Source: Trichoplax sp. H2 (taxonomy: Eukaryota). From it: a stretch of 64,000 nt of DNA. Shown here piece by piece: positions 36,845-61,977 of the stretch. The notes under the pieces were generated by a model. The model searched no databases, was not told where the DNA came from, and worked only from the letters and a program-made list of their open reading frames with translations. The DNA lies in assembly GCA_003344405.1 (NCBI GenBank), contig NOWV01000142.1, positions 124,001 to 188,000 of the forward strand, given 5' to 3'. Positions within the stretch are counted from its first letter, which is position 1; the number at the start of each line of letters is the position of its first letter. The position numbers and the translations under genes are program-made.

Positions 36845-39800
36845 TTATAAACAAAATACTTGCAGTCCACCTTTTTCAACGGTACCCTGAATTGGGCCAT
36901 AATCCACTACTTCACCATCTACGGTTAAATATCCACCTTCAGTTTCTGGTACAAGACGAAATGCTTTGCATGGTATTAACTGAACATCAGGCGATTCAAT
37001 GTATTGTCCATTCTTGGTTGATAAGAGTATTTTAGTTAATCCTTTACGATTAACTTTATCACTGACTGCCACAATATATGCCTTGCCATCATCTAGTCTT
37101 GATGGCGGTGCAAATAGGAAATCCGTCGATAAATAAGGCAAATTACCGATGACAACTGTAATGAAATCCTGATCAATTACTTTCCATTGATTCGGTAGAG
37201 GTTTATCAAGTGATGGTATAGGATTTGAATCATCGCCAACTCTGCAAAATAATAAGGTATAATTTATTTCCTTATTTATTTATAAATCAAGCTTAATCTC
37301 CGTACTTTCTTAATCCATTGTACCTTCATAGATATTATTGGCTCTTAAAAGTTATATCAAGTAAAATAATATGATCGTTGCATCAACTTACGTCAGAATA
37401 GCAGATTGTTGATGGTTGGCATCCAATTGTGTAACATTCATATCATCATCGTTGTGAAACTAAAAATGCGAGGTGAGAATGTAGGGTGTTTACGCTTTTG
37501 CATCGATTGACATTGCTTCATGTTATGAATTAATTATTATTGTAAATGGCTGCGGATAATATTCAATAAATTACAGTATAATATATGGACTAACAAAGCC
37601 AAGATAACATGAGCCTAAACGATGCAGTATTTGTTTATTAAACATGCAATATGTTTATTATAGATGCTATCCAATTTAGCTTGCAAAGTGAATGGACTTT
37701 ATTTGTTTATTTTTATTATGTTATACGTTGCATGAATTACGGAGAGTTTATCTAGCTAATAAATAATTAGGAGTTTCAACACTGACTTTTCATTCCATAG
37801 GAATTAGTATTAGAACTGTTCATTTAGCCATATTACGTTCAAAAACTTGAATACTACTGCAACCTAAATCTTACAGATATAAAAAATCAATCTGACTTCC
37901 AATCAACTTACGTTAAATGTTTCATCCATAACAGCAGAACGTTCACTGACATTGCCATTATTCGTCCATTGAGATTCTCGAGTTTCTTCAGGCTCCTTGT
38001 CACAAGGTAAGTAAGATATTTTGCCTCGATAGACCTTTCGTTTAGCAATCATGGAAACTGCTTCTACAGTAAAGCGATTAGAACCAAGAAAATGAAACTT
38101 TTCTGACTTGATGTCAATATCAGCAATCATTCCCCATCCTATAGATAGAAAGGCTAGAAAATTGTTTTTTTTCGACTGTAAATGCATCAAATCCAACGGA
38201 CGAGTTGAATATTTTGCAATGATAAAGGTGGCACTGACGATATCATTTGGCTCTCTAGAATAAAATAATGAAGAAACTACTTAATCAACATATATGTACA
38301 CAGGCCAAGTTATGAAAATTAATTCGACTTAAAAATGCGATAGGATTCATCCTTGATAATGAAGCAAGGAATGAGATACAGGTGGAAATTCTTTGACTAC
38401 AAGTTAATATTTCTTAATTAATGACGATAGTCCTATTCTACTAGTATAAAATTAATAAGATAAATATTGATACGTTTATTTCAATCCATAATAAATGCAA
38501 ATGGACTCTAAATATATTCTAATAATTTTGATAGCCCTTCGAAGTAAAGAATAAAACCAACTAAAGCAGTACTTGGGCTATGCCATTTTTAGACACAGAA
38601 CGAAACTATGTGCATGCTTCAACCTAGCTAGTATAGAACTAATTTAGAGAATCAAGATTGCTTGATCTGTTTAGGATTATTAATAAATGAGAAACTTCAT
38701 AAATCTTTACATAGCATCCCTTAGCTCCAACTATCTCTTAGACACAATCTAATGATCAATCATTACCCTGAAAATTTCATAATGGACGCATAGAGTGCAT
38801 TCCCTGATCCTGCAGGTAAAATACCAATAGGCATATGTCTTACGGTATCCCAATCCTGCCGCTCATTTAGTCCATTTATAACCTAATCAGAGAGATTGAA
38901 CCAGTCATGAGTCTTATTTACAATGTTCACGCGATAAGCCATCATGTTCATCTTACATTTATATTTATTGGCAAGCCTATGCAATAAATTAATATCGCTA
39001 TTACTAGTTACAAACTTACTTCATAAATCAATCCGTCTCCGGATACAACTAATATACCATCCCATTTGGAAAGATTAGCATTAATGATATAGTCTTTTGC
39101 ATGCCCGACTCGTTCTATAAATGAAAGAAAATTAAGTTTAATCTGTCCGCAGTCAATCAATTACTACATGAAAGCTTCACTTAGTTATTAATATAAGTAG
39201 ATTTTGAAAATGACCTTTAAACTAAAGCTACTCAACATTAAAGCAATTACATCGTTGTACCTGTAGTTACAACTTCGCATAATATATCCGCTTCATTTAA
39301 AATATCTTTTGATTTGCCGTTGAAAATTTTACTAGCTTTACCAGATCCACTACAAGGGTTAATAAAAACCAACAATTTTCGTGGTGCTGGGCAAGATTTT
39401 GATCCTAGATCTGGATATTGTTAAGAAATAAAAAAATTTATGAGTCCATTTCATTTTTATTTTATCGGTATTGATGTTTTAAGATTTATATACGTATATC
39501 ATATCGATCGTCATATTTACTGTATTCTAATATTACAATCTATTAAGTGGATAAATCGATCGTATGATAATAAAGATTATTTTATTTTAACTATGTAAAT
39601 ATTATAGTCTCGATGATCATTTTAATTACTGAAAGATAATTTGTGAGATAGTTTCACGATCAGGATCAAAGTGGCAATTCGATTCTCAGGTTTTCATAAA
39701 ATGTTTTATTTTAATAAAGATCGGGACAGCGATGCTAAAATGATACAAGCTCAAAGATTATTTTAAGGATTAAATGTTAGCAACGTGGGTTAGGGTTAAT

Positions 39801-41786
39801 AAAGTCGTCAATTATGGTTAGATAAAGGTTAGAAGAATTTTTACATGAGGCACATATATAACATTGTATACTTAACGCAGCAATATTGTTGAGGATTGAA
39901 ATTAGTTAAGGAATACTAACCCAGTATTTCATCAAATAATGATGAAGTTGAGAAGAATCGTGGCTGCTATAGAATTAGGATATTCTCTGATTATCAAGTG
40001 TTGGTAGTGTGATATTAAACACGTAAAACTGCACTATAGGGAAATTTCTTTCCATACACTGTATGCCCTACGATATCGCACCAATGTCTCTTAATAGGAA
40101 TGTAAGCTATTGGCTGGATGTTAGACAGCTAAGGCTCATTTAATTGTGGTAAGGATCGAGAAAATGATGCCATGATAATTCATGAATATTGTATCATCTT
40201 AACATAGAAGCGTAAAGATGTTCTTCCAGGATTGAACTTCGATTACAGCTGCAATGGCATAATAAGCAGAGAAAACTGGCTTGTTCTATCATAACAACAT
40301 TATGCAGAATTCTAAATATTTTATCCTATTTGCAAACGTCGGATCTTCCGATTTACTATACGCTTTAGCAATTAGCGATGATCTTTAGATTCTTTTTCAT
40401 CGCTAACGATCCATTTAGCCGTAAACGTTAATATTTAAATTCAATATTTAGTGGCTCTACCGTAGGAAGTGATGAATCATTTTTTACTTTCCATTGTTTG
40501 GAGCAATTTTGTTTGAAGTAATTAAATTATCGCTTAAAACTGTCATACAATTTGAGTACAACCTGACATACTCGTATAACGTGACTAAACTAATATTTTT
40601 TCATAAGTACTGGAAGAAAACAAAACTAGAGGATAGTCTTCAATATCGAAAAGCTAATCGGATTTAAAGTCTATCTATAGAAATAGCCGATATTGCGAAA
40701 ATATAGAATTCTACTGTTACCATCAGTAAAGCCTCCGCTAGAATAGCAAATCTGTTCAAATTATTAAAACATCTTAGAGGAGAGCTTTTCATGGCGAAAT
40801 TGAAGTGTGACCTCATCAATAACAAATTTCCCAATAATTTATAATGGGAAACATTTTTACTCCAATATTTAATGGTAGCAATCTCTGGCTATTTAATAGC
40901 GTTTCTGACGGAAGAATAGATAGTTATTGAATGGAATTAATACGATGTGTCGGTGCAACTAGTGAAGCATACGGTTATCATATTGCTGTATGGGTGATTT
41001 GTTCTAAGTAAAGCTTATAGCAAGATAGCAAATTGGCCCTTTTAAAAGTAAAATATGGTACTACTAACTGAGTGATCGTTAGTGTATTCTTTTCATCAAA
41101 ACCTGGCGAAAAGGTAGGAGTGAAGACATTATGGGCGGAGTAGAATTTCCTCAGGATTTTTCTATAACGATCGAGGTATTAGTTTTTAAGCAAAGACGAC
41201 GAATAAACACGTGTAGAAAAGGTGATTGAATAGCAGCTATGTTGTGATGGAAAGGCAATCTCTACACTCTGATGGATGCAAGACTATCCTCAATCGAATA
41301 GATCTGGCTATGGATAAATGCTCTGATACAATCAATTGGAGTACCTGGTTGATACTTGATACCACGCAAAGCGCATATAATGGCTGCATGCCATTGATCT
41401 GCAATCTTGATGTTGTCTTCTACTTCCTTCGATTGGGCAACACGTAAATAGACTGGAATAGAAATTCTCTTACAAGCGGAACCAATCTTTTTCTTGCGCA
41501 TTGGATACCAAAATAAGGTCAAATAGCCACCACGATCACGGCGTTTCGTCGATGTACCTCTTGATACTTTACAGCCAATAACATCTTTTAGTTGTATTAC
41601 GCCATCATCACCTAGTAGTGATGCTGGAGGGCCACTATCGGATACTTTAATACACATTTGATTCTGAGTTAAGACGACATGGCAAGGCCTTAGCTTATTT
41701 CTAGGCCATATTAATTGTAATGTATCTTGCATGATAATTTGGCTAATTAACGTTGTCGACTTGTTGGATATACGAATTTCTTCCAT
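36845..41786 (-). CDS. SPHK: Sphingosine kinase (DAGK-catalytic family) with N-terminal PH-like region
   Basis: Exons about 41345-41786, 39261-39410 (LLVFINPCSGSGKA), 39020-39115 (VVSGDGLIYE), 38767-38883 (ILPAGSGNAL), 37911-38255 (LSIGWGMIADIDIKSEKFHFLGSNRF), 37391-37459 and 36845-37243 (AFRLVP..GYLTVDGEVVDYGPIQG). Confidence 0.92.
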
Positions 41787-42959
41787 TTTCTGTCTTGATA
41801 TCCAGAAGGAAATTTGCACGCGTCCCAAGTTGAAAGAAACGACAAGAATTACCAATTTCCAAGTCGGTCAATAAAATGCTTAACCTATACTATGCTTCAA
41901 AGCCAGTCTGAAAATGAATATATTAATAATAAGACTTTTTTTTGGCATGGGTAGATTATTGATTGAAATTTCAGTTTGCCAATAGAAGCAGACTACGCAA
42001 GTTCTAATGACATTTTGCTTGTTTAACTCTTGAATACAGTACAATAGCTTCCGTATGGCACAAGCATCGAATGGATTTATATTACTTTTCGCTACTCCTA
42101 AGTCATTGCGAATTATTTTTCTATACTTTAGCTCAGATACGCGTAGGCCCATTAATAAACAATCTGCAACGGTCTAAAAAATGACTCATACTATGTGTAA
42201 TAGTATTCCAATAGTATTATCCAATTAAGATAGAATAACAATAAATCAATTATTTCTGGCTATATTTAATCCACGGATTAATCATAGCGCAAAAAATAGA
42301 CTAAATATCCATGCGCTAAGTATTGGCGATCAAAGTGACATTTTTCAGTTATCCAATGCAATCTGATTCGTAGGCTAGGTGTAATTATTCATCGACTCAG
42401 TTAATCTCTATCTATGTTTTGATTATACTTAATCAGAGTATTGATCACAATTTTGCAATAATAACACAAGCCTACAAAATGCGGAATGGGTTATAACTTG
42501 CTTAAACCAATAGAACTACAAGACCATCTGCCTACCTCATAGCATCGACTCTTGTAACTATCCTTGTCAAGTAGATAATACTCTACTCTAGAAAGATGAT
42601 TAACGCGATTTAAAGGGTCAATCTGTCATTCAACTTGCAATCTTCATTAACGAAATACCAGCTAAAGAGTGGATCAAATTACCGTTAATTCCAATTATCC
42701 ACTGTCAGTAATCATAATAATAGAAAAATGAGGAAAAAAAGTTCTCGTTCCTGACGTAATTTAGACCATGACGTCAGGATCATGGCTTAATGTTCTATAC
42801 TATTACTGCGGTTAGCTAGAATGAATGGCGAGTTCGTGCCTACCGGAGAAATATCCTTCTTATTGTTGTTGTTGTTGTTGTTGTTGTTGTTATTATTTTT
42901 TTTTATCGTATACCGGCACTACCAACTTTCTTATGGTTTCTATTCCGGACTAATTGATA

Positions 42960-46087: not shown

Positions 46088-47464
46088 TTAGATATGCAAA
46101 AGTTGCAAGGTACTAGGTAAATCTGGAGTTTGATTTTGTTGAGTAGATTGTATTGTCTCATTGTTATTTTTTTTTCTTTCGTCTCTTCGTTTCTGTCGGT
46201 CTTTTTTAGCCAATTCTTTCCTCCGACGATTGGATATGTATTTATTAGGTTGCTGATGACTAGATGGTCTTCCTTTGATATTGCCTTTACTCCCTTTGGA
46301 AGATGATTGTTGTAGCTTTCCATTCGAATGATTATCCAGAGCGACTTTATTTTCATTCTCTGCAACAGTATGGTGAAGATGATGCCCTGCAGTTTTTTGT
46401 GTGCTTTGGCCATCTTGACTGGTTAATTCCTCAATTTGAACAATATAAGCAACAGTATTACTAATATTATATTCATGTTCTCGTAAGGCTTCCCTAACCA
46501 AGTTAATATCTGTACAATTGGATAAATGCATCACTTCTAATTCAATTTCATTTGGTTGATGGATGAAAGTATTACCCATAGAATTTGTAGCATCAGCATT
46601 CTTATTTAAGGCGCTAGCAGTCACTGTTGTCGTCATTTCATTTTTGTTTATGCACGTCTCAGAGTGAGTAGGACTGGCACCGATGGATGTCGTTGATGTT
46701 GTATCTTGAGCTGGTGTTGGATGAGAATGGGGGATAGAATCAGGATGACTGGCATCTTGGCTTCTAGGTTCAGTATTATTATGACATTTTCCTTCGGTTG
46801 CATCTTGTATCCCTTTCTGTTTCTTTTTCGTGGATTCATTGCAAGCAATTTTATCACTATCAGACTTGAGTTGATTTAACTTCACATCCGCTGCACCATG
46901 AGGATGGTTGTCCTTAATTTTTCGAACAGACGAGTAATGCTCGAAATCATGGTAAGAAATATGGAGTTCACGACTACCAGTCTTTGTAGGCCCATCTATT
47001 CCTTCAATTTGCCAGCATGGTTTATTAAGTTGATGAATGACAATGGTAAGGCGATGAATTCTAGCAAAAGCAACCAATGCATCATTGCCAGCAAAGGTCC
47101 CTTCTTGACCAAGCAATTGGATATGTTTATCAAAGGAGACATTATCGATCATAAATGGTTCAAAATCGTTGCGATTTTGGATCATATATTGCACCACTTG
47201 TTGACGATAGTTGATATGATTGGATTCATGGCCTTCTAATTGATCAGCCAAAGCTCGAAATAAGCAGTTTCCATCACCGGTGATTTGGCGTATTTTCAGT
47301 TGTATCCGACTCAGTTGTAACTTTAAGCTGTTTTCTTCACTCGACGACTGCGTTTGTTCTTTCTGACGGCGTATTTCACGCCTGGCAGCTCGTTCATCTC
47401 TTTTTCGTTGTTGTTGAGCTAGTCTTTGCGATTTTTGTCCATTACTATTCTGTTTTTTACCCAT
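46088..47464 (-). CDS. OTUD3: OTU-domain deubiquitinase OTUD3-like, single exon
   Basis: ATG at 47464 (MGKKQ). Basic N-terminus [26 protein letters not shown] (catalytic Cys), [29 protein letters not shown] (catalytic His), a UBA-like segment and a basic C-terminus. Confidence 0.92.
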
Positions 47465-48564
47465 GACGTTCCTGCCAATACCATGCAAGCTTGGCTATTG
47501 CAAATTTGCAATGCTATTAACAACCTTGCATCCAATTGGCTTTAGATCCTTCATTCATTGGCAACATCAGAATCCAATCCAATCTTGACCGCTATGACAG
47601 ATGACAGTTTGGTGCTCGATTATACCGTACAGTGTGCATAATAGACCTGATGATAGACCATGTCGTACCCTAAATAGCAACTCAAGACGAAGTCAAGATA
47701 TTAAAAGCTTGATAGGAGCAAAGCTTTGGCCATGGCTACTCGCTATGGCGTTGCATCTTGATAAGGTTGATTGGGCGAAATGATTAAGAAACGGCGTTCG
47801 TTTGTAATCGAAATGACTGGATTGTTATAGTAATCCATAGTGGCGAAGGGTCGAAATGGGTTATTTTATAGTCGTGTCTAGGAGACAACCGACGATGGTG
47901 TTTTTGGCCGTGGTGAATCCTACAGTACCTACTTTACGGTATCCTAGTACTGTACTACAGTACCATGATTGTTTGTACTGTAGAGGTGTCATTTGATGCC
48001 CCCCGATTGCATTTTTTTCCTTTCGTTTTAACTGACAGGTTGGTGTCCTGGTAAAAGAAAGAGAGACGAGAAATGGATGGTTATTCGTCCGAGTTGTACT
48101 ATAGTACTCCATGAACGGTACAGTACAAGTGTAGAGCAAGAATAGCCATAGGAAGAAAAAGATGATGTAATCCATCCAGGACGAAATACTTTTGTAAATA
48201 GAGAAATGGATATTGTACTCTCTTGCGCCATTGATTTTCACATTCACTGAGGCATGTACTGTATGAAGCTGCTGCCTGAACAGGTTCTGAGGTTGGTGGA
48301 ATGTTCTAGAAACACGGTCCACAGCCAGCGCAATCCTTTTCGTTTCAGAGAAATCAACACTAATGTTTTGCGACATTTTGAGAACGAAATCCATCAAAAT
48401 TGTTATGTGTGGAAAGAAGAAGCTCTCATAAGCATGCCTGTATCATTTATTTTTGTGAAGTAAATGATTTGAATTCGTTTTTTCACGATTTATAGTGTAC
48501 CGTTATTCTTGTAAAAATCGCCATTGTACAGTACTACTGCTTGTGTACAGAGTAGTACCGTGCT

Positions 48565-49063: not shown

Positions 49064-52000
49064 ATGGCGCGAAATGAAGGTGACCATCGACTTCGCGATC
49101 GCTTCGGCAGCATTTTTACCAACTATCTAAGCGCAAGATTTCTCTTAAATGACAACCAAGAACGGGCAAGAGATGTAGCGCAGTTTCAAGGAGAGAATTA
49201 CATTGAAGTCAACGGAGACGAGACCGATTTAGGCCGTGGACCTGCTGATGTGGCACAATTACTCATTAACTTTGGAGATAATATAGAAGACCTTCGAAGT
49301 GTCACTCACGATTATATCGATCAAACATTGGTAATTAAGCTTAGAATAGACAAATTAATACAAGTGAAAAGTAATTGCCTTCGCTAATCGTTATCCCCTT
49401 GAAATGGATGAACAAGTGGAAAATGCTTGATCCATCCACTTTGTAGTATTGCTACACTAGACGACATGCTACAAGTGGTCATGACTTGTTTACTGTTCAA
49501 AATGTCATCCTGCCCATCAAGGGGAATGGACTGGGCAGAATAATCCATTCATGAATAGAAGTAAAAAGTAATTGCCTAAGCTAATTGCTATCCCTTTGAG
49601 AAGGATGGATAACTGGAAAATACTTGATCCATCTACCTTTTAGTATTGCTACCCTAGACGACATCAGACAAGATGTGATGAAATGTCCACTGCCGAAAAG
49701 GTCATCCTACCCATCAAGGCTTGAATATACTGTATATCCATCATTTCCTTCTTCAATTATACAATAGCATTGGGCAATCAGTAGTCATGAAATAGACAGC
49801 CGAGAGAGAGGTTGCTAAGAAATGTGTCAAGTGGAAAATGCTTGATCCATAAACCTATGCTACTACTGTACTGTACAGTACTGATTACACCATCATCCTG
49901 GTCATGAAGGTAAGTGTGCTATTAGATCTGAGAAAGGTTCGGTTCAACACTTGATTATCGATCATTTCCTTCTTTAATCATACAGCAGTGTCGTTAAAAG
50001 TCAACCCGACTCCAGGGCGGGATTCGCCTGAAGAATTTCTGTAGTGATGCAGTCTTTGGAAAGCGATTGCATTCATTTCGGGTTGCGTTTTCACTCCATT
50101 TAAGGACTCTATACGGTAGGGTGTGTTGGTCAAATATCCACTATAAAGAATTAGATTGAGGCATCCGAATTTCCTCCACTTCCCCCTCTTAAACCAGCCT
50201 TCGCCAGATTTTAGCTAAAGTAATTTCGAAAAAAATTTTATAGTCGATAATTTGAAGAGTAACGCTAAATTATTATTCGTTCGGCGTAAAGTTTCGTTTT
50301 CAGCAATACTGTACAGTCTAGACTACAGTATGGTTGGACAATCTTGCCAAAGTCGTTTCTTAAAAGTGAAATTATTACACGTTGGGCATGCACGCTCAGT
50401 GACAAGTCAATTGTTTATTTTACTCCAGCTGACACGAGTTGTTTAGTCAAGTTAGCCAGTCCTACTGTTCACGGTTGTGTCTACTTCCCCTGCAATCAAT
50501 ATCATAATCATGGCATGACGATTTAAACCTTAAATATCCTCTGTATTGACATGATGGTATCGAGATGATTTGGAGCCAACGTACATGTTACTATTTATCA
50601 AATTGCATTCCATAAAGTTCGTTCAGGCAATCGTGACTACTGTACAATTTGAAATCCCTGCCATTCAGATAGTAGTTCCCATTTGCAAGATAAAAAAAGA
50701 TGGCAACTTTGAAGAAATCATACTGTTTACTATCGCATTCAAGACATCCGTCAGTAAATGATCACTCGCGTCTTTAATTCAACAGGCAACGTAAAAACAA
50801 ATCATGCTCCATCAACATGTATGTCCAACGTTGATCATATTGATTATTTTTGGCCCTTCAATAGGATTATATGGAGCACTGATGGTACTCCGTTTGCATT
50901 GAAAGGTGCCGCAGAGACAGTTTGATTCCCCAGTAAGTTAATTAGTCCCGCCATTAATCAACTCTGAGGAAATCACCCTGTAATATCCAGTAGTGCGTTA
51001 ATTAAAGATGCCATTCCCATCATTTTTGTTCCTGCAGGCAACTTAAAAGAGCTGAGGCGTTTAGCGTTTTTACCTAGAAGGATTGTTGGACAGAAAACAT
51101 AATGATAAAGTGCTTTAAATACTAAATTAGCTGTAAATCGATTCTTTGATTGCAATAAATGGACGAGTAAATGAAAGTCTTTACCAGACTTTAAATGTAC
51201 AGTACTTCAAGCACTCAAGGGTTTAGCTACGAATCGATTCTTTATTGCAACAAACTAATCTACGAAGTGATATTGCAGAGAATGTTTCATTTAATTAAGA
51301 ATGTTGTTTACATTGCCGTTCTTTTCTAATTCGTAAGAATAGAGTGAAGGGCACGAAAATATACTACCAAGACTTAATAAAAAATTAGGCAGTTTAAGTT
51401 ACTTCTGAATGAGAAATTAGCCCAAAGGATATGATTTCGATAGAACTGAAGACAGCAATTGCATTATTATTGCACTCAACCCAAATTTATTCAGTCCGTG
51501 TTTACTTTACTAAAGCACATATTCATATGATAAATGACTAGTAGTATTAATTAAAACATACCTTTTGAATTATCGTCTGTTATCTTTAAAATTGTAGCTT
51601 TCAAATCTAATAAACTGATACTATGCTGTATTATTATTATTATAATATCAAAATTACGTTAATTAAATCAGCAAATATCTTCTATGTAACTATGTGCAAA
51701 ATGAGATTAACTGATCTACGACTTGGATTAATATTGCATTATCAAAGCTTAGAAAATTTTGCAGATGTTAGTATCATGTTGACATCATTTTTCTTTCTAT
51801 TTTTGAATATAGCATCTAAGTATTCAAGAAATTACCCAAAGATACCAATGGATTGTTGATCATGTGCTTCATTCTAACCGAAATAATTCGTTTGGACGCC
51901 TAGTTGTACTATTCTATTTCGGGTATCAACTAGTTTGTCGTCGATGGGATAATTTTGACTTCAAGCATCTTTTAAGAGAAGTTACAAAAACAATCATTCA

Positions 52001-52351
52001 CATTGCCATAAACTATGTAATGGATAAATTCTGGGATGGAACCTGGGTAATAACAGACTATCTGCACATTATCCCTGATATCAGTAGCTACAATACTGCC
52101 ATTACTCTTGCCATAGTGATAAATTCTTTGAATGATGACAATAATACCTAATTTGGGTAGAAGTGTTAACAATACTGTTAATATCACCTAACTTTGAATT
52201 TTTGGATTAATAACAGGATACCGTCTACGAGAACATAATGCAAATTCCGTTCGTCCAGAGCCAAATATCACCATTCCGAAGGAATTCTTTGATAGCAATA
52301 GCTCTTGTGTTCGGTTCAATTTTGGCGTTGAGTTTTATTCGACGTACCTAA
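49064..52351 (+). CDS. Divergent multidomain Bcl-2-family protein (Bak/Bax-like), 3 exons, 211 aa
   Basis: Exons 49064-49330, 51813-52046 and 52217-52351, all GT-AG and phase 0. Helix-1/BH4-like IFTNYLSARF, BH3 VAQLLINFGDNIE, BH1 NSFGRLVVLFYFGYQL, BH2-like DKFWDGTW|D and tail anchor SLIAIALVFGSILALSFIRRT*. Confidence 0.85.
49360..49860. repeat. Diverged ~200-bp intronic tandem duplication (2 copies plus a partial third)
   Basis: AAGTG/AAAAAGTAATTGCCT..GGAAAATGCTTGATCCAT..TAGTATTGCTAC..CTAGACGACAT..GTCATCCT.CCCATCAAGG at about 49362 and 49559; partial copy at about 49829. Confidence 0.75.
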
Positions 52352-55300: not shown

Positions 55301-55607
55301 TTTCAAAGATGTCGATTTACTACAATCTGTAAAAAACTACCTATTTGGATAATAATTTATAACCATTACTGGACCTTGAAATTATTAATCATTGATTTAA
55401 AATTAAATCGATTAACCTTATGCCCCAAAGGGCAAAAGGACAAATTAGTAAGTAATAATAATAATTTGATATTGTACGAAATTGAAGAAAACTTTTATCA
55501 AGTAAAGTTAACATTATATTGCCCTAGCTATTTTATCTTGTTAAATCTTTAAGTACAAAATAACGAGTTGATTAGCTATTATTTTCATGTTGCTTTAATG
55601 AGCTAAT

Positions 55608-56516
55608 ATGTCTGCTTTCATTTCTATAACAGTTCCTAATAACGCACTACTATGCCTGGTGATAGTGGTATCATTGATAATAGCTACACTATTCTTAAAT
55701 TGCATACTACATAAAAGATGGAAATTAATCGTCAAGTTATTTTCCAAATTTTGCCCTCGTGTAAAAGTTCGTAAGAAACGTTCTAGCAAGCTAGATGCTA
55801 CTAAGGATAAGTCACCAAATAGTGATGATTATGATACTAGTGATCATCCGTCCGATAATGAAGATGATAAGGCTAATGAAAATAGCAAGTTAATCACTGG
55901 ACCTGGCGATAATCGATCAATCGATCAAAGTAATCTTAGTTCTTCTCACACACCACCACCTAGTAGGGTAGAAACTGCAAGTTTAAGCACATATATTCCA
56001 GGTGCTTCTCGTACCGGATCTTATGCCTTAAATAGTTATACACATAAATTATCCAGTGAAGAAAATTTAGTTCATGTTGAGTTTAAAATTTCATTTGAGG
56101 AAACCCTTACTCAACTTGTAGTGAAGATAGAAGATGCTGTAATTGACGATGAGAAGCTTTTAAAAGGCTATGTTAGTGTTCATGGTGCACTGGTTGGAAC
56201 TAAAACGAGGCGCTTTCAAACTAGAGCTAAACGTTCAAGTTCTAGTATTATCTTCGATCAAATATTTGTTTTAACTAATGTTGAAATTTCAGACATTGAA
56301 ACGTCTAAATTGCGCCTTCGTTTATATCATCTAGCTAGTAAGGCAGCATTAATGCAAGCCAAAAAAATAGTTGCTGAAAATATTGTTGGCTTGCATCAAT
56401 TAAAAGCTACAAATAATAATAACAATAATAACAACACTGATAATGAAGCTGATGAAACTCAGATTGAAGATCAGCCAAAGCCATTGGAAAAAGATGAAGC
56501 TGAAGTTGCAGAGTAA
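55608..56516 (+). CDS. Single-exon membrane-anchored C2-domain protein, synaptotagmin-14/16-like
   Basis: N-terminal TM (ALLCLVIVVSLIIATLFLNCIL), basic juxtamembrane stretch, acidic/Ser linker and one C2 domain (VEFKISFEE..LVVKIEDA..RRFQTRAKR..IFDQIFVL..LRLRLYH). Confidence 0.7.
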   Translation: MSAFISITVPNNALLCLVIVVSLIIATLFLNCILHKRWKLIVKLFSKFCPRVKVRKKRSSKLDATKDKSPNSDDYDTSDHPSDNEDDKANENSKLITGPGDNRSIDQSNLSSSHTPPPSRVETASLSTYIPGASRTGSYALNSYTHKLSSEENLVHVEFKISFEETLTQLVVKIEDAVIDDEKLLKGYVSVHGALVGTKTRRFQTRAKRSSSSIIFDQIFVLTNVEISDIETSKLRLRLYHLASKAALMQAKKIVAENIVGLHQLKATNNNNNNNNTDNEADETQIEDQPKPLEKDEAEVAE

Positions 56517-57065: not shown

Positions 57066-60000
57066 TTATGCATTTGATAATAAATCCTTTAGGTCTTGTA
57101 AAAATATGCTTGCTTTTTCGGGTGTCATTGTATTAGCTAAGGATAGAAAATCGGCTTGATAGGCTTCTGAATTGGATAAATCATTACCAATACGGACTAA
57201 TTCGCTTCCAATGGATCTTACGTCAATTTTTATCTCTTGATTTTGGTCCTTTCTTTCATTATTTATCATAGTTTTATCAACACTATCATATACTTCCGCT
57301 ACGTCCAAACTTTTCGCTCTTGACTCTCTCAATTCCTTAGCTCGTAGTATTATCGGTGATGGGATACCAGCCATATCCGCTATTTCAATCCCGAGCGAAT
57401 TTTGACAGTGACCTGGTACTACTTTATGCAAAAGAGTTAACGAATTCTGATCAATGACACCCTTACTAGCTGTAAGCATTTGATATGACGATGAGCATGA
57501 CAGGTTGTCATTGACCATTCGACTCAACTGATGATAATGAGTGGCTGTTAAACACCGACATTTAACAATGTCATGTAGATATTCGATAACAGCCCAGGCG
57601 ATAGCCATACCATCATACATAGCAGTACCTCGACCTAGCCGAAGAATATATTCAAATAAAATAGCAGATTAGATCATTTTCTTTTTTCCTCCTTGTATAT
57701 TAACTCAAACATTTACTTAAAACAAATTCTTACCAATTTCGTCCAGAATAACGAGAGACCTTTCGGTAGCATGAGAAGTAAAATAAGCAGTTTCAAGCAT
57801 TTCTGTCATGAACGTTGATCTGCCTTCTATTATACTATCAGAGCTTCCTATGCGCGTAAATAGTCGATCTACAATACTGAGATGAGCTTTATCGGCCGGA
57901 ACGTAAGATCCAATTTGAGCCAAAATTGATATAATAGCATTTTGACGTAAGTAAGTACTTTTACCAGCCATGTTAGGCCCAGTAAGTAACCAAATGCGAT
58001 CAGAAGGGCGCAAATTGCAGTCATTTGGTATATAAGAACTCGAATCATAGGTGGTCGATTCAATGACAGGGTGCCTTCCGGCTACAACTTGAAATAACTG
58101 ATTTTCTTCATCGTCGAAAGTTGGTCTAATGAATTTACCATCTTTAGCAGCTATTGCTAAGCTGCAAGCTACATCTAATCTCGCTACAACCTGAGCAATT
58201 CTTTTCAACCAATCTATAGACAATGTTATTTTATTAAATAAATGGAGTAAAAATTCATTCTTACGTTGGTTAAGTTTAGCAGTGTTTCTTCGTAATTCAA
58301 TGTTAATCAACTGCAATTTTTCATCAGTAAATAATATTCGAGAGGCTTTTGTCTTCACCATCATTACATTACTATCATTAAAAGTAGACTGCAGATTTTT
58401 ACTCTCAGCTTTTGGTAAACTGTATGCATAACCAAGATCCTTGTATATTTCTAATTTACCACTTGGCATCAAATTTATGAAATTATCTTTAAGTCTTACA
58501 ACTTGTTGATGTAGTGCGTTAATTTCTGAACGAATTTGATCGCATTTATCATCCACACCAATTGCAGGAAAATTGGTTTCATCATCGTCAGTAGTGACTA
58601 TTCCTTGTAAATACTTTATTAAACTCTGGCGGTCGATACTTCTTGGTGGCAGTTGATTGATGAGTTCACGTAAACTGTGATCATTCGTTAAATTTTCATC
58701 TAATACCTGATGTAACATTTGGGTATTAGGTAGGACTTGACTCAATTTAATAACATGCCCTACATTTGCCATATTAGTAGAAAATGCTTGCACCAGTCGC
58801 TCCATATCTCCACACGTTTTTAAAATATCGCAAATAGATTTTGTAATTGTTAGATGATGGTAAAAGTAAGTCACTTCATCAAGCCTTTTATTAATTTTTG
58901 TAATATCTGTTAAAGGTGAGGACAAGTCTGCTTTGAGATATCTTCTACCAGCAGAAGTAACGGTATTGTCAATGATATGAAGTAATGTACGCGCTCTACC
59001 GCTTGAAGCATCGTTATGGAGTGGCTGTAACAGTTCAAGTGATTTTCGACTAGCCGGATCGATAGACATGTGATCATCGATTGAGTAGTGCTTAGGGGTA
59101 AGGGTTTTAATGATGTGTCTGCCTCTCGTATCAGTTAAATATTTCAGTAGCATCTTGATTGTGCTCTCTTCTATGCTAGAAATTTGTGTATTCTTCAATC
59201 CATTGTCACGCATCGTTGCCCATATATCGTCTTCTAAGGCATTATCTTTCAATGGTGTTAGCCTAAATCCAGGGAGCAACGACAACTGATCATATTTACC
59301 GGCAAAGGAGGGGATAGCTTGCATTGAATCGTTTTGGTTGAAATACTTGTTTAAAAGATTTTGCATGTCTTGATAACAAATTATCTAATGGAATCAATTA
59401 AGCACTGTTAAAACCTACTTTATGTATTTACTACTTGCATCCTCATTACCAATATGCTATCGATTGCTCTACCAATATGATTTCTATGTATCAAACTTGC
59501 AAAATGCAGAAGTGTCATTGTGATGTTACAGACAGCGTAATCCACCTAGCACAAGTGATGACCAGGGTCTATTCCAGTATTACGCACTTAATTAATTTTT
59601 ATTTTTTAAACCTCTTACCTCAACTGGATTAATTCTGGCCAATTCCTCTCCAAGATTTCCTACATTGACGGTTGTCAGTTGAAAATCACCTGTTGATATA
59701 TCCACCCAGCTGATACCTAATTGATGACCCGGTCCTTGACAAACTGCCATCAAGTAGGATGCATTTTCCTGCATAGGATTTATGAAGGTGCCAGGTGTGA
59801 CCACTTGTGTTACCTGTCGATGAACTAATTTAGAGTTGCGGCCAGTGTCAATTTTAGAATCAGTTTGATTGCATACAGCAACACGGAAGCCATGACCAGT
59901 CAACTTCGCTAACCATGCATCAAGTGCGTAGATAGGAAATCCAGCTAGATCAACATAAGTATTGTTACCCATTTTTTTATGGTGGCTTAAGAATAATTCA

Positions 60001-60263
60001 GTCTTTCCAGCTGCAGCATGTGCATCTTGATTATATAACTCGTAAAATCCACCAACTTGAAATAGTAGCAAGCAATCGCTATACTGTGCTTTAATATGCA
60101 AATACTGTTGAAACATATACTCAGCAGTAAGCGCTAATGGCGAAGTTACAAGGCATCGTTTGAGCGGATTTTCATGCCATTTCAACTTGCTATGCCGCCG
60201 CGTATTGAATGGAATGATTCGCTTGATTCCTTGGAAATAGTTCAATGATGTCCTCATCCACAT
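57066..60263 (-). CDS. MSH1: MutS1/MSH1-type mismatch-repair ATPase with putative mitochondrial presequence, 3 exons, about 954 aa
   Basis: Exons 59619-60263, 57734-59384 and 57066-57634 join in frame. Domain I MFQQYLHIKAQYSDCLLLFQVGGFYELY (FxE), VTQVVTPGT, GISWVDISTGDF, SRKSLEL, GRHPVIE, TGPNMAGKSTYLRQ, STFMTEM, ILDEIGRGT, ATHYH. Confidence 0.88.
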
Positions 60264-60799
60264 CCTTGTCAAAGTCACGCGGTTTTAATGATTGGAGTTG
60301 GATGTTGCATGCAGGTTACATTAAGGCTTTTGCAGAGCTAGTTCAATCAATACATTGAATTTTAGTGTTGATTATTGCATGAATTCCAGGACAACACTAC
60401 GGATTTGGAACTGCAGGGAGCAGCTGCTGGATGATTGTGCAGCATTTGAGCTTTTCGATATACAGTACTCTGCATAATGTCCAAGGGAGAGATTACGTGC
60501 AGAATAATTGTCACCCTTTTCTTTCCATATCTCTCCTTGGTATTGGGTACTATGACAGTCAGTTTCATTCTAACGTCGCTACTGTCGTGTATAGTACTGT
60601 ACTTCAAAGAACCCTATTTAAGCGACATGATTCTGGTAAGTTGCAAAGGATCTCCTATCCTGGTTGTGAGAATATCGACTCAGTATCATTGAAATCATTT
60701 TTAAACAAGAAAACAAGGACATAGCAGCTGAAGCTTAGCTGAAATCATGTTTTCATCGATCACTGTCGATATTTTAGCACAAAATTAGCGCTAATATTA

Positions 60800-60950
60800 A
60801 TATAAATTAATCCTATTAAATATATTTATTTATTATTTAGTATAGATTACTCCTATTGAATATATTTATTATTTAAAATAAATTAATCCTATTGAATATA
60901 TATTTAATATGTATTTAACATATAAATTAATCCTATTTTATACATATTTA
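60800..60950. repeat. AT-rich degenerate minisatellite
   Basis: TAAATTAATCCTATT(G/A)AATATATTT-like unit about four times. Confidence 0.65.
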
Positions 60951-61324
60951 TTATTCTACACTATAAAACAGTATCGGAAGGAAGGAGGTCATGGACAAAC
61001 ATCGACGTTAGATAATTGATGACCCAAATAATGTTTCCATCTTAGGAAAGGATAACTGCCCTTTATACCATCGTATACAGTGGAAATTGCTGCCTCCAAT
61101 GATCTATTCAACTTGAAACCTGCATGACAATAATTAAAATGGCGATTTATAATCATAACAAAATGAATAAAATGGAAGAATTGTTTGCATACTGAAGCAC
61201 TGTTGTATCTCGAACATCGTTTTTTGTCAGTCCAATTATACTGCATTCTATATTACAATGTCGAATGTTCCAAACACTTGTTCTGGACATGGTTTTTTAT
61301 TAACTGGTATTATATCTATATCTG

Positions 61325-61590
61325 GTACAGAATGTCTGGACATATTTTATTTGGCTTTGTATGATAAATGTATCCTGATTTTTGGACGCCCGGAAAGTCT
61401 GAACACATTTTATGCGGCTATGTATGAAAAATGTGTCCAGATTTTTGGACACTCTTACGCCCGGAAAGTCGGGACACATTTTATTTGGCTTTGTATGAAA
61501 AGTGTGTCTAGATTTTTGGACGCCCGGAAAGTCTGGACACATTTTATGCGGCTATGTATGAAAAATGTGTCCAGATTTTTGGACATTCTT
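61325..61590. repeat. ~62-70-bp minisatellite, about 4 copies
   Basis: GTCTGGACACATTTTAT(TT/GC)GGCT(T/A)TGTATGAAAA.TGTGTCCAGATTTTTGGACGCCCGGAAA-like unit in alternating A/B variants. Confidence 0.88.
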
Positions 61591-61644: not shown

Positions 61645-61870
61645 CTAGAGCGTACTGTACAGTACAGTACTGTACGCAAGATCAAATACCGTACAGTATC
61701 TACTGTACAGTAGACTCTGTTTGCTGGCTGGTACTGTACTGTACACTGTGTGCAGTACTGCACAGTCATTGGACAATGGCAGCGTGAACTTCTTTCGCAA
61801 GTACAGTACTGTACCGTACCGTACTGTACCACACCGTACCGTACTGGACCGTATCGTACCGTACTGGACC
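61645..61870. repeat. (GTACT/GTACC/TACAG)n simple-repeat cluster
   Basis: Dense GTACAGTACTGTACCGTACCGTACTG runs. Confidence 0.8.
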
Positions 61871-61977
61871 GCACCGACAGGCGACAGGTCTGAAAGTTGA
61901 CTCACAACGCGTATCAGAGTAGTCTTGAAATAAAAATAGAACCCAACCCGCCAAACGCCTTTACGCTAGTCATCGTC

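What the first reader, a model, noticed from the sequence alone, without database searches (positions are those of the whole stretch)
57066..60263. Nuclear-encoded bacterial-type MutS1/MSH1 in an animal, with putative mitochondrial presequence
Seen: complete MutS domains I-V with the mismatch-reading FxE motif, two spliceosomal introns (so not bacterial contamination), and an Arg/Lys-rich, nearly acid-free N-terminal extension (MWMRTSLNYFQGIKRIIPFNTRRHSKLKW). Known: fungal MSH1 maintains mtDNA, while vertebrates, Drosophila and C. elegans lack it. There is no C-terminal GIY-YIG (plant MSH1) or HNH (octocoral mtMutS) domain. Inference: a retained mitochondrial mismatch-repair gene, relevant to mtDNA evolution in early-branching animals.
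Basis: partly seen in the sequence, partly recalled or inferred. Interest (0 to 1): 0.7.

Follow-up and report, generated by a model that had tools for sequence, protein, structure and literature searches.

The report
Known Trichoplax mitochondrial MSH1 gene
This is a real, spliced gene for a bacterial-type DNA-mismatch sensor (MSH1) that probably works in the mitochondria of the placozoan Trichoplax, but this gene and its likely mitochondrial targeting have already been published.

Summary
A three-exon gene (60263-57066, minus strand) encodes a 954-aa MutS1-type protein. It has an intact Phe-X-Glu mismatch motif, intact ATPase motifs, a basic N-terminal extension, and no GIY-YIG or HNH domain. 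Both introns are spliced out in RNA contigs. The protein is identical to Trichoplax sp. H2 RDD39253.1 and one residue from T. adhaerens B3RJ73. It is already known: placozoan MSH1 was reported in PMC8438181, and B3RJ73 is listed with TargetP mitochondrial probability 0.73 in PMC12292046. My trees place it with fungal MSH1 beside alphaproteobacterial MutS1 and reject a Rickettsia-group sister. One short-alignment test could not reject grouping with MSH6. 'Mismatch repair' is stronger than shown. Small additions: an intron-rich paralogue lacking the Phe shares both intron positions, and its public model appears to skip two exons. The boldest open reading is a MutS-alpha-like heterodimer of the two paralogues in mitochondria (about 25%). 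The scan's earlier notes held nothing on this gene.

The parts
59619..60263 (-). Exon 1 (coding, 645 nt, aa 1-215): N-terminal extension, MutS domain I, first part of domain II
   Evidence: donor confirmed by RNA contig joint
60144..60263 (-). Putative mitochondrial presequence (aa 1-40): basic, one acidic residue, highest hydrophobic moment in aa 1-18
   Evidence: net +8 in aa 1-37; 0 of 867 later windows reach it; TargetP 0.73 for B3RJ73 in PMC12292046 Table 1; not run here
60039..60047 (-). Mismatch-reading Phe-X-Glu (F73 Y74 E75)
   Evidence: aligns with the motif of Taq MutS; F and E in 115 of 115 comparison rows
59385..59618 (-). Intron 1, GT..AG, 234 nt, phase 0, with in-frame stop; same codon and phase as an intron of the paralogue on C157
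57734..59384 (-). Exon 2 (1651 nt, aa 216-766): rest of domain II, levers (III), clamp (IV), Walker A at aa 684-692, Walker B at aa 759-764
57635..57733 (-). Intron 2, GT..AG, 99 nt, phase 1, with in-frame stop; same codon and phase as an intron of the paralogue
   Evidence: (runs X10 and X5)
57066..57634 (-). Exon 3 (569 nt, aa 766-954): rest of the ATPase domain, dimer helix-turn-helix, C-terminal helix pair resembling the bacterial MutS tail; no nuclease domain

Best explanation
This is the Phe-bearing copy of placozoan MSH1: a nuclear gene of mitochondrial (alphaproteobacterial) ancestry, orthologous to fungal MSH1. Shown: it is spliced, encodes a full MutS1 fold with intact Phe-X-Glu and ATPase motifs, and has no nuclease domain. 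Inferred: the basic N-terminal 40 residues take it into the mitochondrial matrix and are cleaved. There it dimerises, clamps mtDNA, inserts F73 at mispairs or small loops (replication errors, oxidative lesions, recombination heteroduplex), and uses ADP/ATP exchange to mark the site. Lacking a nuclease and, as far as seen, a mitochondrial MutL, it most likely acts as yeast Msh1 is described: mutation avoidance, and control of mtDNA recombination through other enzymes. It is probably not the start of a complete MutS-MutL pathway.
For: Identity with RDD39253.1 and B3RJ73. B3RJ73 is in the alphaproteobacterial-like MSH1 table with TargetP 0.73 (PMC12292046). Whole-protein score is 317-335 bits to E. 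coli and Taq MutS against 221-242 to human MSH2/3/6. Full-length tree: placozoan pair sister to two fungal proteins 97/93, inside a 10-row clade holding all named eukaryotes 98/98, with Alphaproteobacteria 100/100; same shape under a mixture model, SH-aLRT 91 and 89. The genome has separate MSH6-like and MSH2-like genes. Splicing seen. Fold. Yeast Msh1 function from passages of PMC4608483.
Against: No localisation or activity data. TargetP was not run here and 0.73 is moderate. No hexacoral, sponge or choanoflagellate MSH1 was in my trees. The bootstrap had not converged (0.967) and long branches meet. The ATPase-only tree does not resolve placozoans with fungi. The AU test did not reject grouping with the MSH6-like row (p=0.237). 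A 26-row tree with gappy nuclear MSH rows was unresolved. Two residues invariant in 115 of 115 comparison rows are changed (G for D at 72, L for R at 566 in the clamp), so DNA binding may be altered.
Confidence: 0.75

Rival explanations
1. The protein works as the mismatch-reading half of a mitochondrial heterodimer with its paralogue on C157 (B3S3R6 type), which has Ala for the Phe but intact ATPase motifs. This would repeat the MSH6/MSH2 division of labour independently. It refines rather than replaces the best explanation.
For: The paralogue has E-A-Y-E at the motif and lacks the conserved Gly of domain I's GFP/GVP stretch, yet keeps Walker A, Walker B, the STFM motif and ATHY. Both carry predicted presequences (0.73 and 0.96). 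The pair is sister in 4 of 5 trees (not in 56) and only 31% identical (261 of 830), so both have been kept a long time. PMC8438181 reports the Ala copies in Hoilungia too. Both share Leu for the usual Tyr/Phe in the dimer helix-turn-helix (position 846).
Against: No binding, co-expression or localisation data. Yeast Msh1 is presumed to be a homodimer (PMC12292046). The paralogue could equally be a separate homodimer for recombination intermediates. Hoilungia has three copies, which does not fit a simple pair.
Confidence: 0.25
2. The gene came to placozoans by a separate horizontal transfer from an alphaproteobacterium, for example a Rickettsiales symbiont, and only resembles fungal MSH1.
For: After three placozoan-like hits, the best hits are bacterial MutS at 32-37%; 5 of the 7 with a taxon name are alphaproteobacterial. 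Only two introns. It keeps a bacterial-like C-terminal helix pair absent from the 2 fungal proteins compared. PMC12292046 did not recover one MSH1 clade and keeps HGT open.
Against: It groups with fungal MSH1 and Balamuthia, not inside bacteria. The AU test rejects a sister relation to the Rickettsia-containing group (p=0.008; group of 1 named and 2 unnamed rows, chosen after seeing earlier trees). Both introns match the paralogue in codon and phase. PMC3641634 classed a Trichoplax mutS as a eukaryotic, mitochondria-type gene (which copy is not stated in the passage seen).
Confidence: 0.07
3. The protein is not imported into mitochondria, or not only: translation from Met50, which lies where bacterial MutS begins, would give a presequence-free form acting in the nucleus or cytosol.
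For: Met50 sits at the start of the domain I match. The 5' end is not covered by the run on record as RNA. TargetP is 0.73, not near 1.
Against: The frame is open from an upstream stop to Met1, and the extension has presequence composition. The genome has its own MSH2- and MSH6-like genes. The paralogue also has an extension.
Confidence: 0.1
4. It is a divergent nuclear MSH6/MSH3.
For: The AU test on 290 ATPase columns did not reject grouping with the MSH6-like row (p=0.237). The Atlas feature search ranks eukaryotic MSH clusters, including MSH2, above bacterial MutS.
Against: Scores, fold and NCBIfam favour MutS1. A true MSH6-like exon from this genome scores 96 bits to human MSH6 against 70 or less to MutS. 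It groups with MSH6 in neither of the 2 trees that held nuclear MSH rows.
Confidence: 0.02

Closest known systems
Trichoplax adhaerens B3RJ73 / TRIADDRAFT_51434 and Trichoplax sp. H2 RDD39253.1 (placozoan MSH1; PMC8438181, PMC12292046)
   Same: Identical to RDD39253.1; one substitution (V/I at 39) from B3RJ73; same 954-aa model. Already listed as alphaproteobacterial-like MSH1 with TargetP 0.73.
   Different: Nothing of substance. RNA support for the introns and the intron comparison with the paralogue were not in the parts of these papers that I read.
Fungal MSH1 (Saccharomyces Msh1; Apophysomyces msh1 P0198 and Calcarisporiella P0205 used here)
   Same: Domains I-V, Phe-X-Glu, N-terminal extension, no nuclease; sister group in full-length trees; about 30% identity.
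   Different: The placozoan clamp is too divergent for Pfam MutS_IV while both fungal proteins hit it. Placozoans have a second, Phe-less copy and keep a bacterial-like C-terminal helix pair. Function is tested only in yeast.
Alphaproteobacterial MutS1
   Same: Best sequence matches (32-37%); passes NCBIfam PRK05399 (657 against cut-off 480); same fold.
   Different: Nuclear, two spliced introns, N-terminal extension; below the TIGR01070 cut-off (564 against 641.7); G72 and L566 replace residues invariant in 115 of 115 comparison rows.
'Plant' MSH1 (GIY-YIG) and octocoral mtMutS / MutS7 (HNH)
   Same: Organellar MutS proteins with a mismatch-recognition domain.
   Different: No nuclease domain here. 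The papers place both in other parts of the family. mtMutS is mtDNA-encoded.

Membership tests
Fungal-type MSH1 (MSH1/MutS1 clade) | MutS domains I, II, III, (IV), V without an added nuclease | tested here: met
   Pfam I, II (partial), III, V; clamp in model and full-length fold match
Fungal-type MSH1 (MSH1/MutS1 clade) | Phe-X-Glu in domain I and intact ATPase motifs | tested here: met
Fungal-type MSH1 (MSH1/MutS1 clade) | Groups with fungal MSH1 next to alphaproteobacterial MutS1 | tested here: met
   97/93 (bootstrap not converged), SH-aLRT 91; unresolved; only 2 fungal proteins and no other named animal lineage sampled
Fungal-type MSH1 (MSH1/MutS1 clade) | Nuclear gene with spliceosomal introns | tested here: met
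   both joints in RNA contigs; neighbours with OTU, Bcl-2 and YegS_C matches
Fungal-type MSH1 (MSH1/MutS1 clade) | Mitochondrial targeting | tested here: inconclusive
   composition fits; TargetP 0.73 taken from PMC12292046; no predictor or localisation run here
Fungal-type MSH1 (MSH1/MutS1 clade) | Mismatch binding and mtDNA maintenance | not testable with these tools
   needs biochemistry or complementation
'Plant' MSH1 | C-terminal GIY-YIG endonuclease | tested here: not met
   C-terminus is helical
Octocoral mtMutS / MutS7 | C-terminal HNH domain, encoded in mtDNA | tested here: not met
Nuclear MSH6/MSH3 | Closer to MSH6/MSH3 than to MutS1 | tested here: not met
   but the AU test did not reject the MSH6 grouping on the short alignment (p=0.237)
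Bacterial MutS1 gene (contaminant) | Uninterrupted gene in a bacterial neighbourhood | tested here: not met

The most novel reading that the evidence does not exclude
Placozoan mitochondria use a MutS-alpha-like heterodimer. This gene (Phe-X-Glu kept, reduced to 2 introns) is the mismatch-reading subunit, and its intron-rich sister (Phe replaced by Ala, ATPase intact) is the MSH2-like partner. That would be an independent, organellar replay of the step from the bacterial homodimer to the eukaryotic heterodimer. I did not find this idea in paper searches or in the passages read.
Probability: 0.25. Interest if true: 0.6.

Novelty: already known. Interest (0 to 1): 0.2.

Why it matters
Animal MSH1 bears on why mtDNA evolves slowly in some non-bilaterians and fast in bilaterians, but that point was made in 2021 (PMC8438181) and this protein is already tabulated (PMC12292046). 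What remains open is function: I found no test of an animal MSH1 in the papers read. The placozoan pair, one copy with and one without the mismatch Phe, is a ready two-protein system for asking whether a MutS homodimer has split into a heterodimer a second time.

Tried and rejected
Retrieving hexacoral, sponge or choanoflagellate MSH1: three homologue searches and one profile search were swamped by bacterial MutS. Only 10 of the 150 representatives were looked up for names, giving the paralogue, two fungi, Balamuthia and bacteria, so orthology to other animal MSH1 rests on the papers. Tree with all columns and exon-pieced nuclear MSH rows: unresolved, long branches meet. AU test against MSH6: not rejected. 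Atlas feature search: does not separate MutS subfamilies. Runs X2 and X6 showed no splice joints and run through the introns, so probably DNA or unspliced. No complex prediction was sent: a MutS ATPase pair would pass by likeness to solved dimers without telling homo- from heterodimer, and the public paralogue model is faulty in the dimer helix-turn-helix. The supplement of PMC8438181 holds only the manuscript source (part 1 of 5 read); its sequence folders and targeting table (external repository) were not seen and may say which Trichoplax copy was predicted mitochondrial. PMC3641634's main text does not give the accession of its mutS; its supplements were not read. Earlier scan notes concerned other genes. 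My revised paralogue model is unresolved after codon 868 (it meets a stop at 877), so its last introns are not settled.

Full report
Verdict. Interest 0.2; novelty: already known.

Observation. Three open frames on the minus strand join through two GT..AG introns into one 954-aa protein: exons 60263-59619, 59384-57734 and 57634-57066; introns of 234 nt (phase 0) and 99 nt (phase 1), each with an in-frame stop. Of 4 runs laid, X10 (RNA on record) has contigs that skip both introns exactly and X5 skips the second; X2 and X6 show no joint. Pfam finds domains I, II (first 61 of 133 positions), III and V, but not IV, GIY-YIG or HNH at E<=1. The AlphaFold model (125-row alignment, mean pLDDT 85, pTM 0.84) has the clamp elements at about 494-568 and low confidence over aa 1-40; the low confidence is expected without aligned relatives and is no evidence for targeting. 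The model's best PDB matches are E. coli and Taq MutS (ranks 1-10, TMt 0.87-0.88), and human MutS-beta first appears at rank 30. F73-Y-E75, Walker A, Walker B, STFM and ATHY are intact. Residues 1-37 carry net +8 with one Glu; 0 of 867 later windows of that length reach +8, and the hydrophobic moment is highest in aa 1-18. GC3 (0.31) is within the range of three neighbouring frames (0.22-0.36). Neighbours match OTU, Bcl-2 and YegS_C families (3 of 7 window frames scanned).

Identity. The spliced protein is identical to Trichoplax sp. H2 RDD39253.1 and differs at one residue from T. adhaerens B3RJ73/TRIADDRAFT_51434. Two unnamed proteins at 67% identity (P0002, P0003) start and break off at the same exon limits and are probably orthologues from other placozoans (inference). 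All further listed hits are at 32-37%; of the 7 that carry a taxon name, 5 are alphaproteobacterial. Against solved structures the protein scores 317-335 bits to E. coli and Taq MutS and 221-242 to human MSH2, MSH3 and MSH6. It passes NCBIfam PRK05399 and misses the TIGR01070 cut-off.

The family in this genome. A domain V search gave 13 matches at 6 loci, a lower bound: this gene, a paralogue on C157, an MSH6-like gene on C234, an MSH2-like gene on C741, and two loci (C763, C1) that I take for MSH4 and MSH5 from recalled motifs and their long joint branch. The C157 gene corresponds to B3S3R6 (885 of 907 residues matched; name). It has Ala in place of the Phe, intact ATPase motifs and at least 20 introns. 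A revised model, open to codon 867, adds two exons (L014 2066-2125 and 2210-2375) that the public model skips. It restores the domain II stretch and is 31% identical to the window protein (261 of 830). Both introns of the window gene fall at the same codon and phase as paralogue introns (216/229 phase 0; 766/772 phase 1); under uniform placement the chance is about 7e-5, higher if splice-prone sites are favoured. So the two genes descend from one spliced nuclear ancestor. Either this copy lost about 18 introns or the other gained them; I could not tell which. A MutL-family search gave 6 matches at 4 loci. The two N-termini I could see have no clear extension, and none looked bacterial-type (my reading, not a tree).

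Trees. ATPase region, 54 rows by 290 columns: the four placozoan rows form a clade (97/98) inside a 36-row group with Alphaproteobacteria, fungi and Balamuthia (98/91). The four nuclear MSH rows are apart in all of 200 bootstrap trees, and placozoans and fungi are not resolved together. Full length without nuclear MSH, 50 rows by 858 columns: placozoans 100/99, with two fungal proteins 97/93, in a 10-row clade holding all named eukaryotes and 3 unnamed rows 98/98, with Alphaproteobacteria 100/100; the bootstrap had not converged. A 20-row mixture-model tree has the same shape at SH-aLRT 91 and 89, and the AU test rejects placozoans as sister of the Rickettsia-containing group (p=0.008). Against my reading: the AU test did not reject the window orthologues plus the MSH6-like row on the short alignment (p=0.237). 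The 26-row tree with gappy nuclear rows left the window gene joined only to its orthologue. No sponge, hexacoral or choanoflagellate MSH1 could be named among my hits. Rows were picked by hand from about 490 fetched proteins.

What is in print. PMC8438181 (parts 1-3 of 5 read: abstract to methods; supplement part 1 of 5) reports fungal-type MSH1 in all hexacorals, two sponges and both placozoans. It gives two copies in T. adhaerens and three in Hoilungia, the duplicates having Ala for the Phe, and one T. adhaerens copy lacking domain II. My revised exons suggest that this lack is a gene-model error. PMC12292046 (section 7 part 1 of 2, and passages) lists B3RJ73 at TargetP 0.73 and B3S3R6 at 0.96, argues for mitochondrial origin, and keeps HGT open because it found no single MSH1 clade. 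PMC3641634 (passages) classed a Trichoplax mutS as a eukaryotic gene with valid introns and mitochondria-type relatives. The preprint 10.1101/2020.12.22.424024 (passages) agrees on placozoan duplicates. PMC4608483 (passages) describes yeast Msh1: ATPase, binds mismatches in vitro, prevents mtDNA point mutations, promotes allelic recombination and suppresses repeat-mediated deletions. Other papers were seen only as search listings.

How it most likely works. Shown: spliced nuclear gene, MutS1 fold, intact sensing and ATPase motifs, no nuclease. Inferred from composition and a published prediction: import into the matrix. Inferred from the established MutS mechanism (my own knowledge) and from yeast Msh1: a dimer scans mtDNA, stacks F73 on a mispair, exchanges ADP for ATP, and hands the site to repair or rejects a heteroduplex. 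Because even yeast Msh1 has no demonstrated MMR pathway and I saw no mitochondrial MutL candidate, 'mtDNA surveillance' is a safer label than 'mismatch repair'. Confidence 0.75. Two residues invariant in 115 of 115 comparison rows are changed, G for D beside the Phe and L for R in the clamp; their effect is unknown.

Most novel reading not excluded. The two paralogues may form one asymmetric dimer, this gene reading the mismatch and the Ala copy serving as the MSH2-like partner. For: complementary state of domain I, both ATPases intact, both predicted mitochondrial, long joint retention, and a shared Leu at position 846 where 114 of 115 comparison rows have Tyr or Phe. Against: no interaction data, three copies in Hoilungia, and the alternative of a separate recombination role. 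Probability about 0.25, interest 0.6 if true. It was not found in searches or in the passages read; subscription journals and the external data folders of PMC8438181 were not seen.

Noticed in passing
L014:1167-6580 (G000:C157): MSH1 paralogue (B3S3R6 type) with Ala for the mismatch Phe and at least 20 introns, two shared with the window gene. The public model appears to skip exons 2066-2125 and 2210-2375 and to misplace splice sites near the dimer helix-turn-helix.
   Followed up: partly
window 60048-60050 and about 58332: G72 and L566 replace an Asp and an Arg invariant in 115 of 115 comparison MutS rows; the two probable placozoan orthologues also have Leu at 566.
   Followed up: partly
window 57066-57130: Both placozoan MSH1 copies end in a helix pair with the TPxxA pattern of the bacterial MutS tail; the two fungal proteins compared lack it.
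   Followed up: partly
G000: No MSH3-like locus among the 6 domain V loci found (lower bound; two loci labelled from recall only).
   Followed up: no
window 55602-56516 (+): Convergent neighbour with a hydrophobic stretch followed by what looks like a C2-type domain (recalled resemblance to synaptotagmin-like proteins); no Pfam hit above cut-off.
   Followed up: no
window 61330-61590 and 61801-61876: Tandem repeat with a 63-base period (about 4 copies, 81% matches) and a GTACC-type pentamer array upstream of the gene; also an AT-rich 36-base repeat at 60797-60955.
   Followed up: no
window 46088-47494 (-), 51813-52151 (+), 36845-41867 (-): An OTU deubiquitinase frame, a weak Bcl-2-family match, and exons with a YegS_C match (sphingosine-kinase-like by recall).
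   Followed up: no
proteins P0136, P0275: MutS of Fimbriimonadales/Armatimonadota is 1242-1269 aa, about 400 longer than usual and matched in separate stretches, which suggests a large insertion such as an intein.
   Followed up: no
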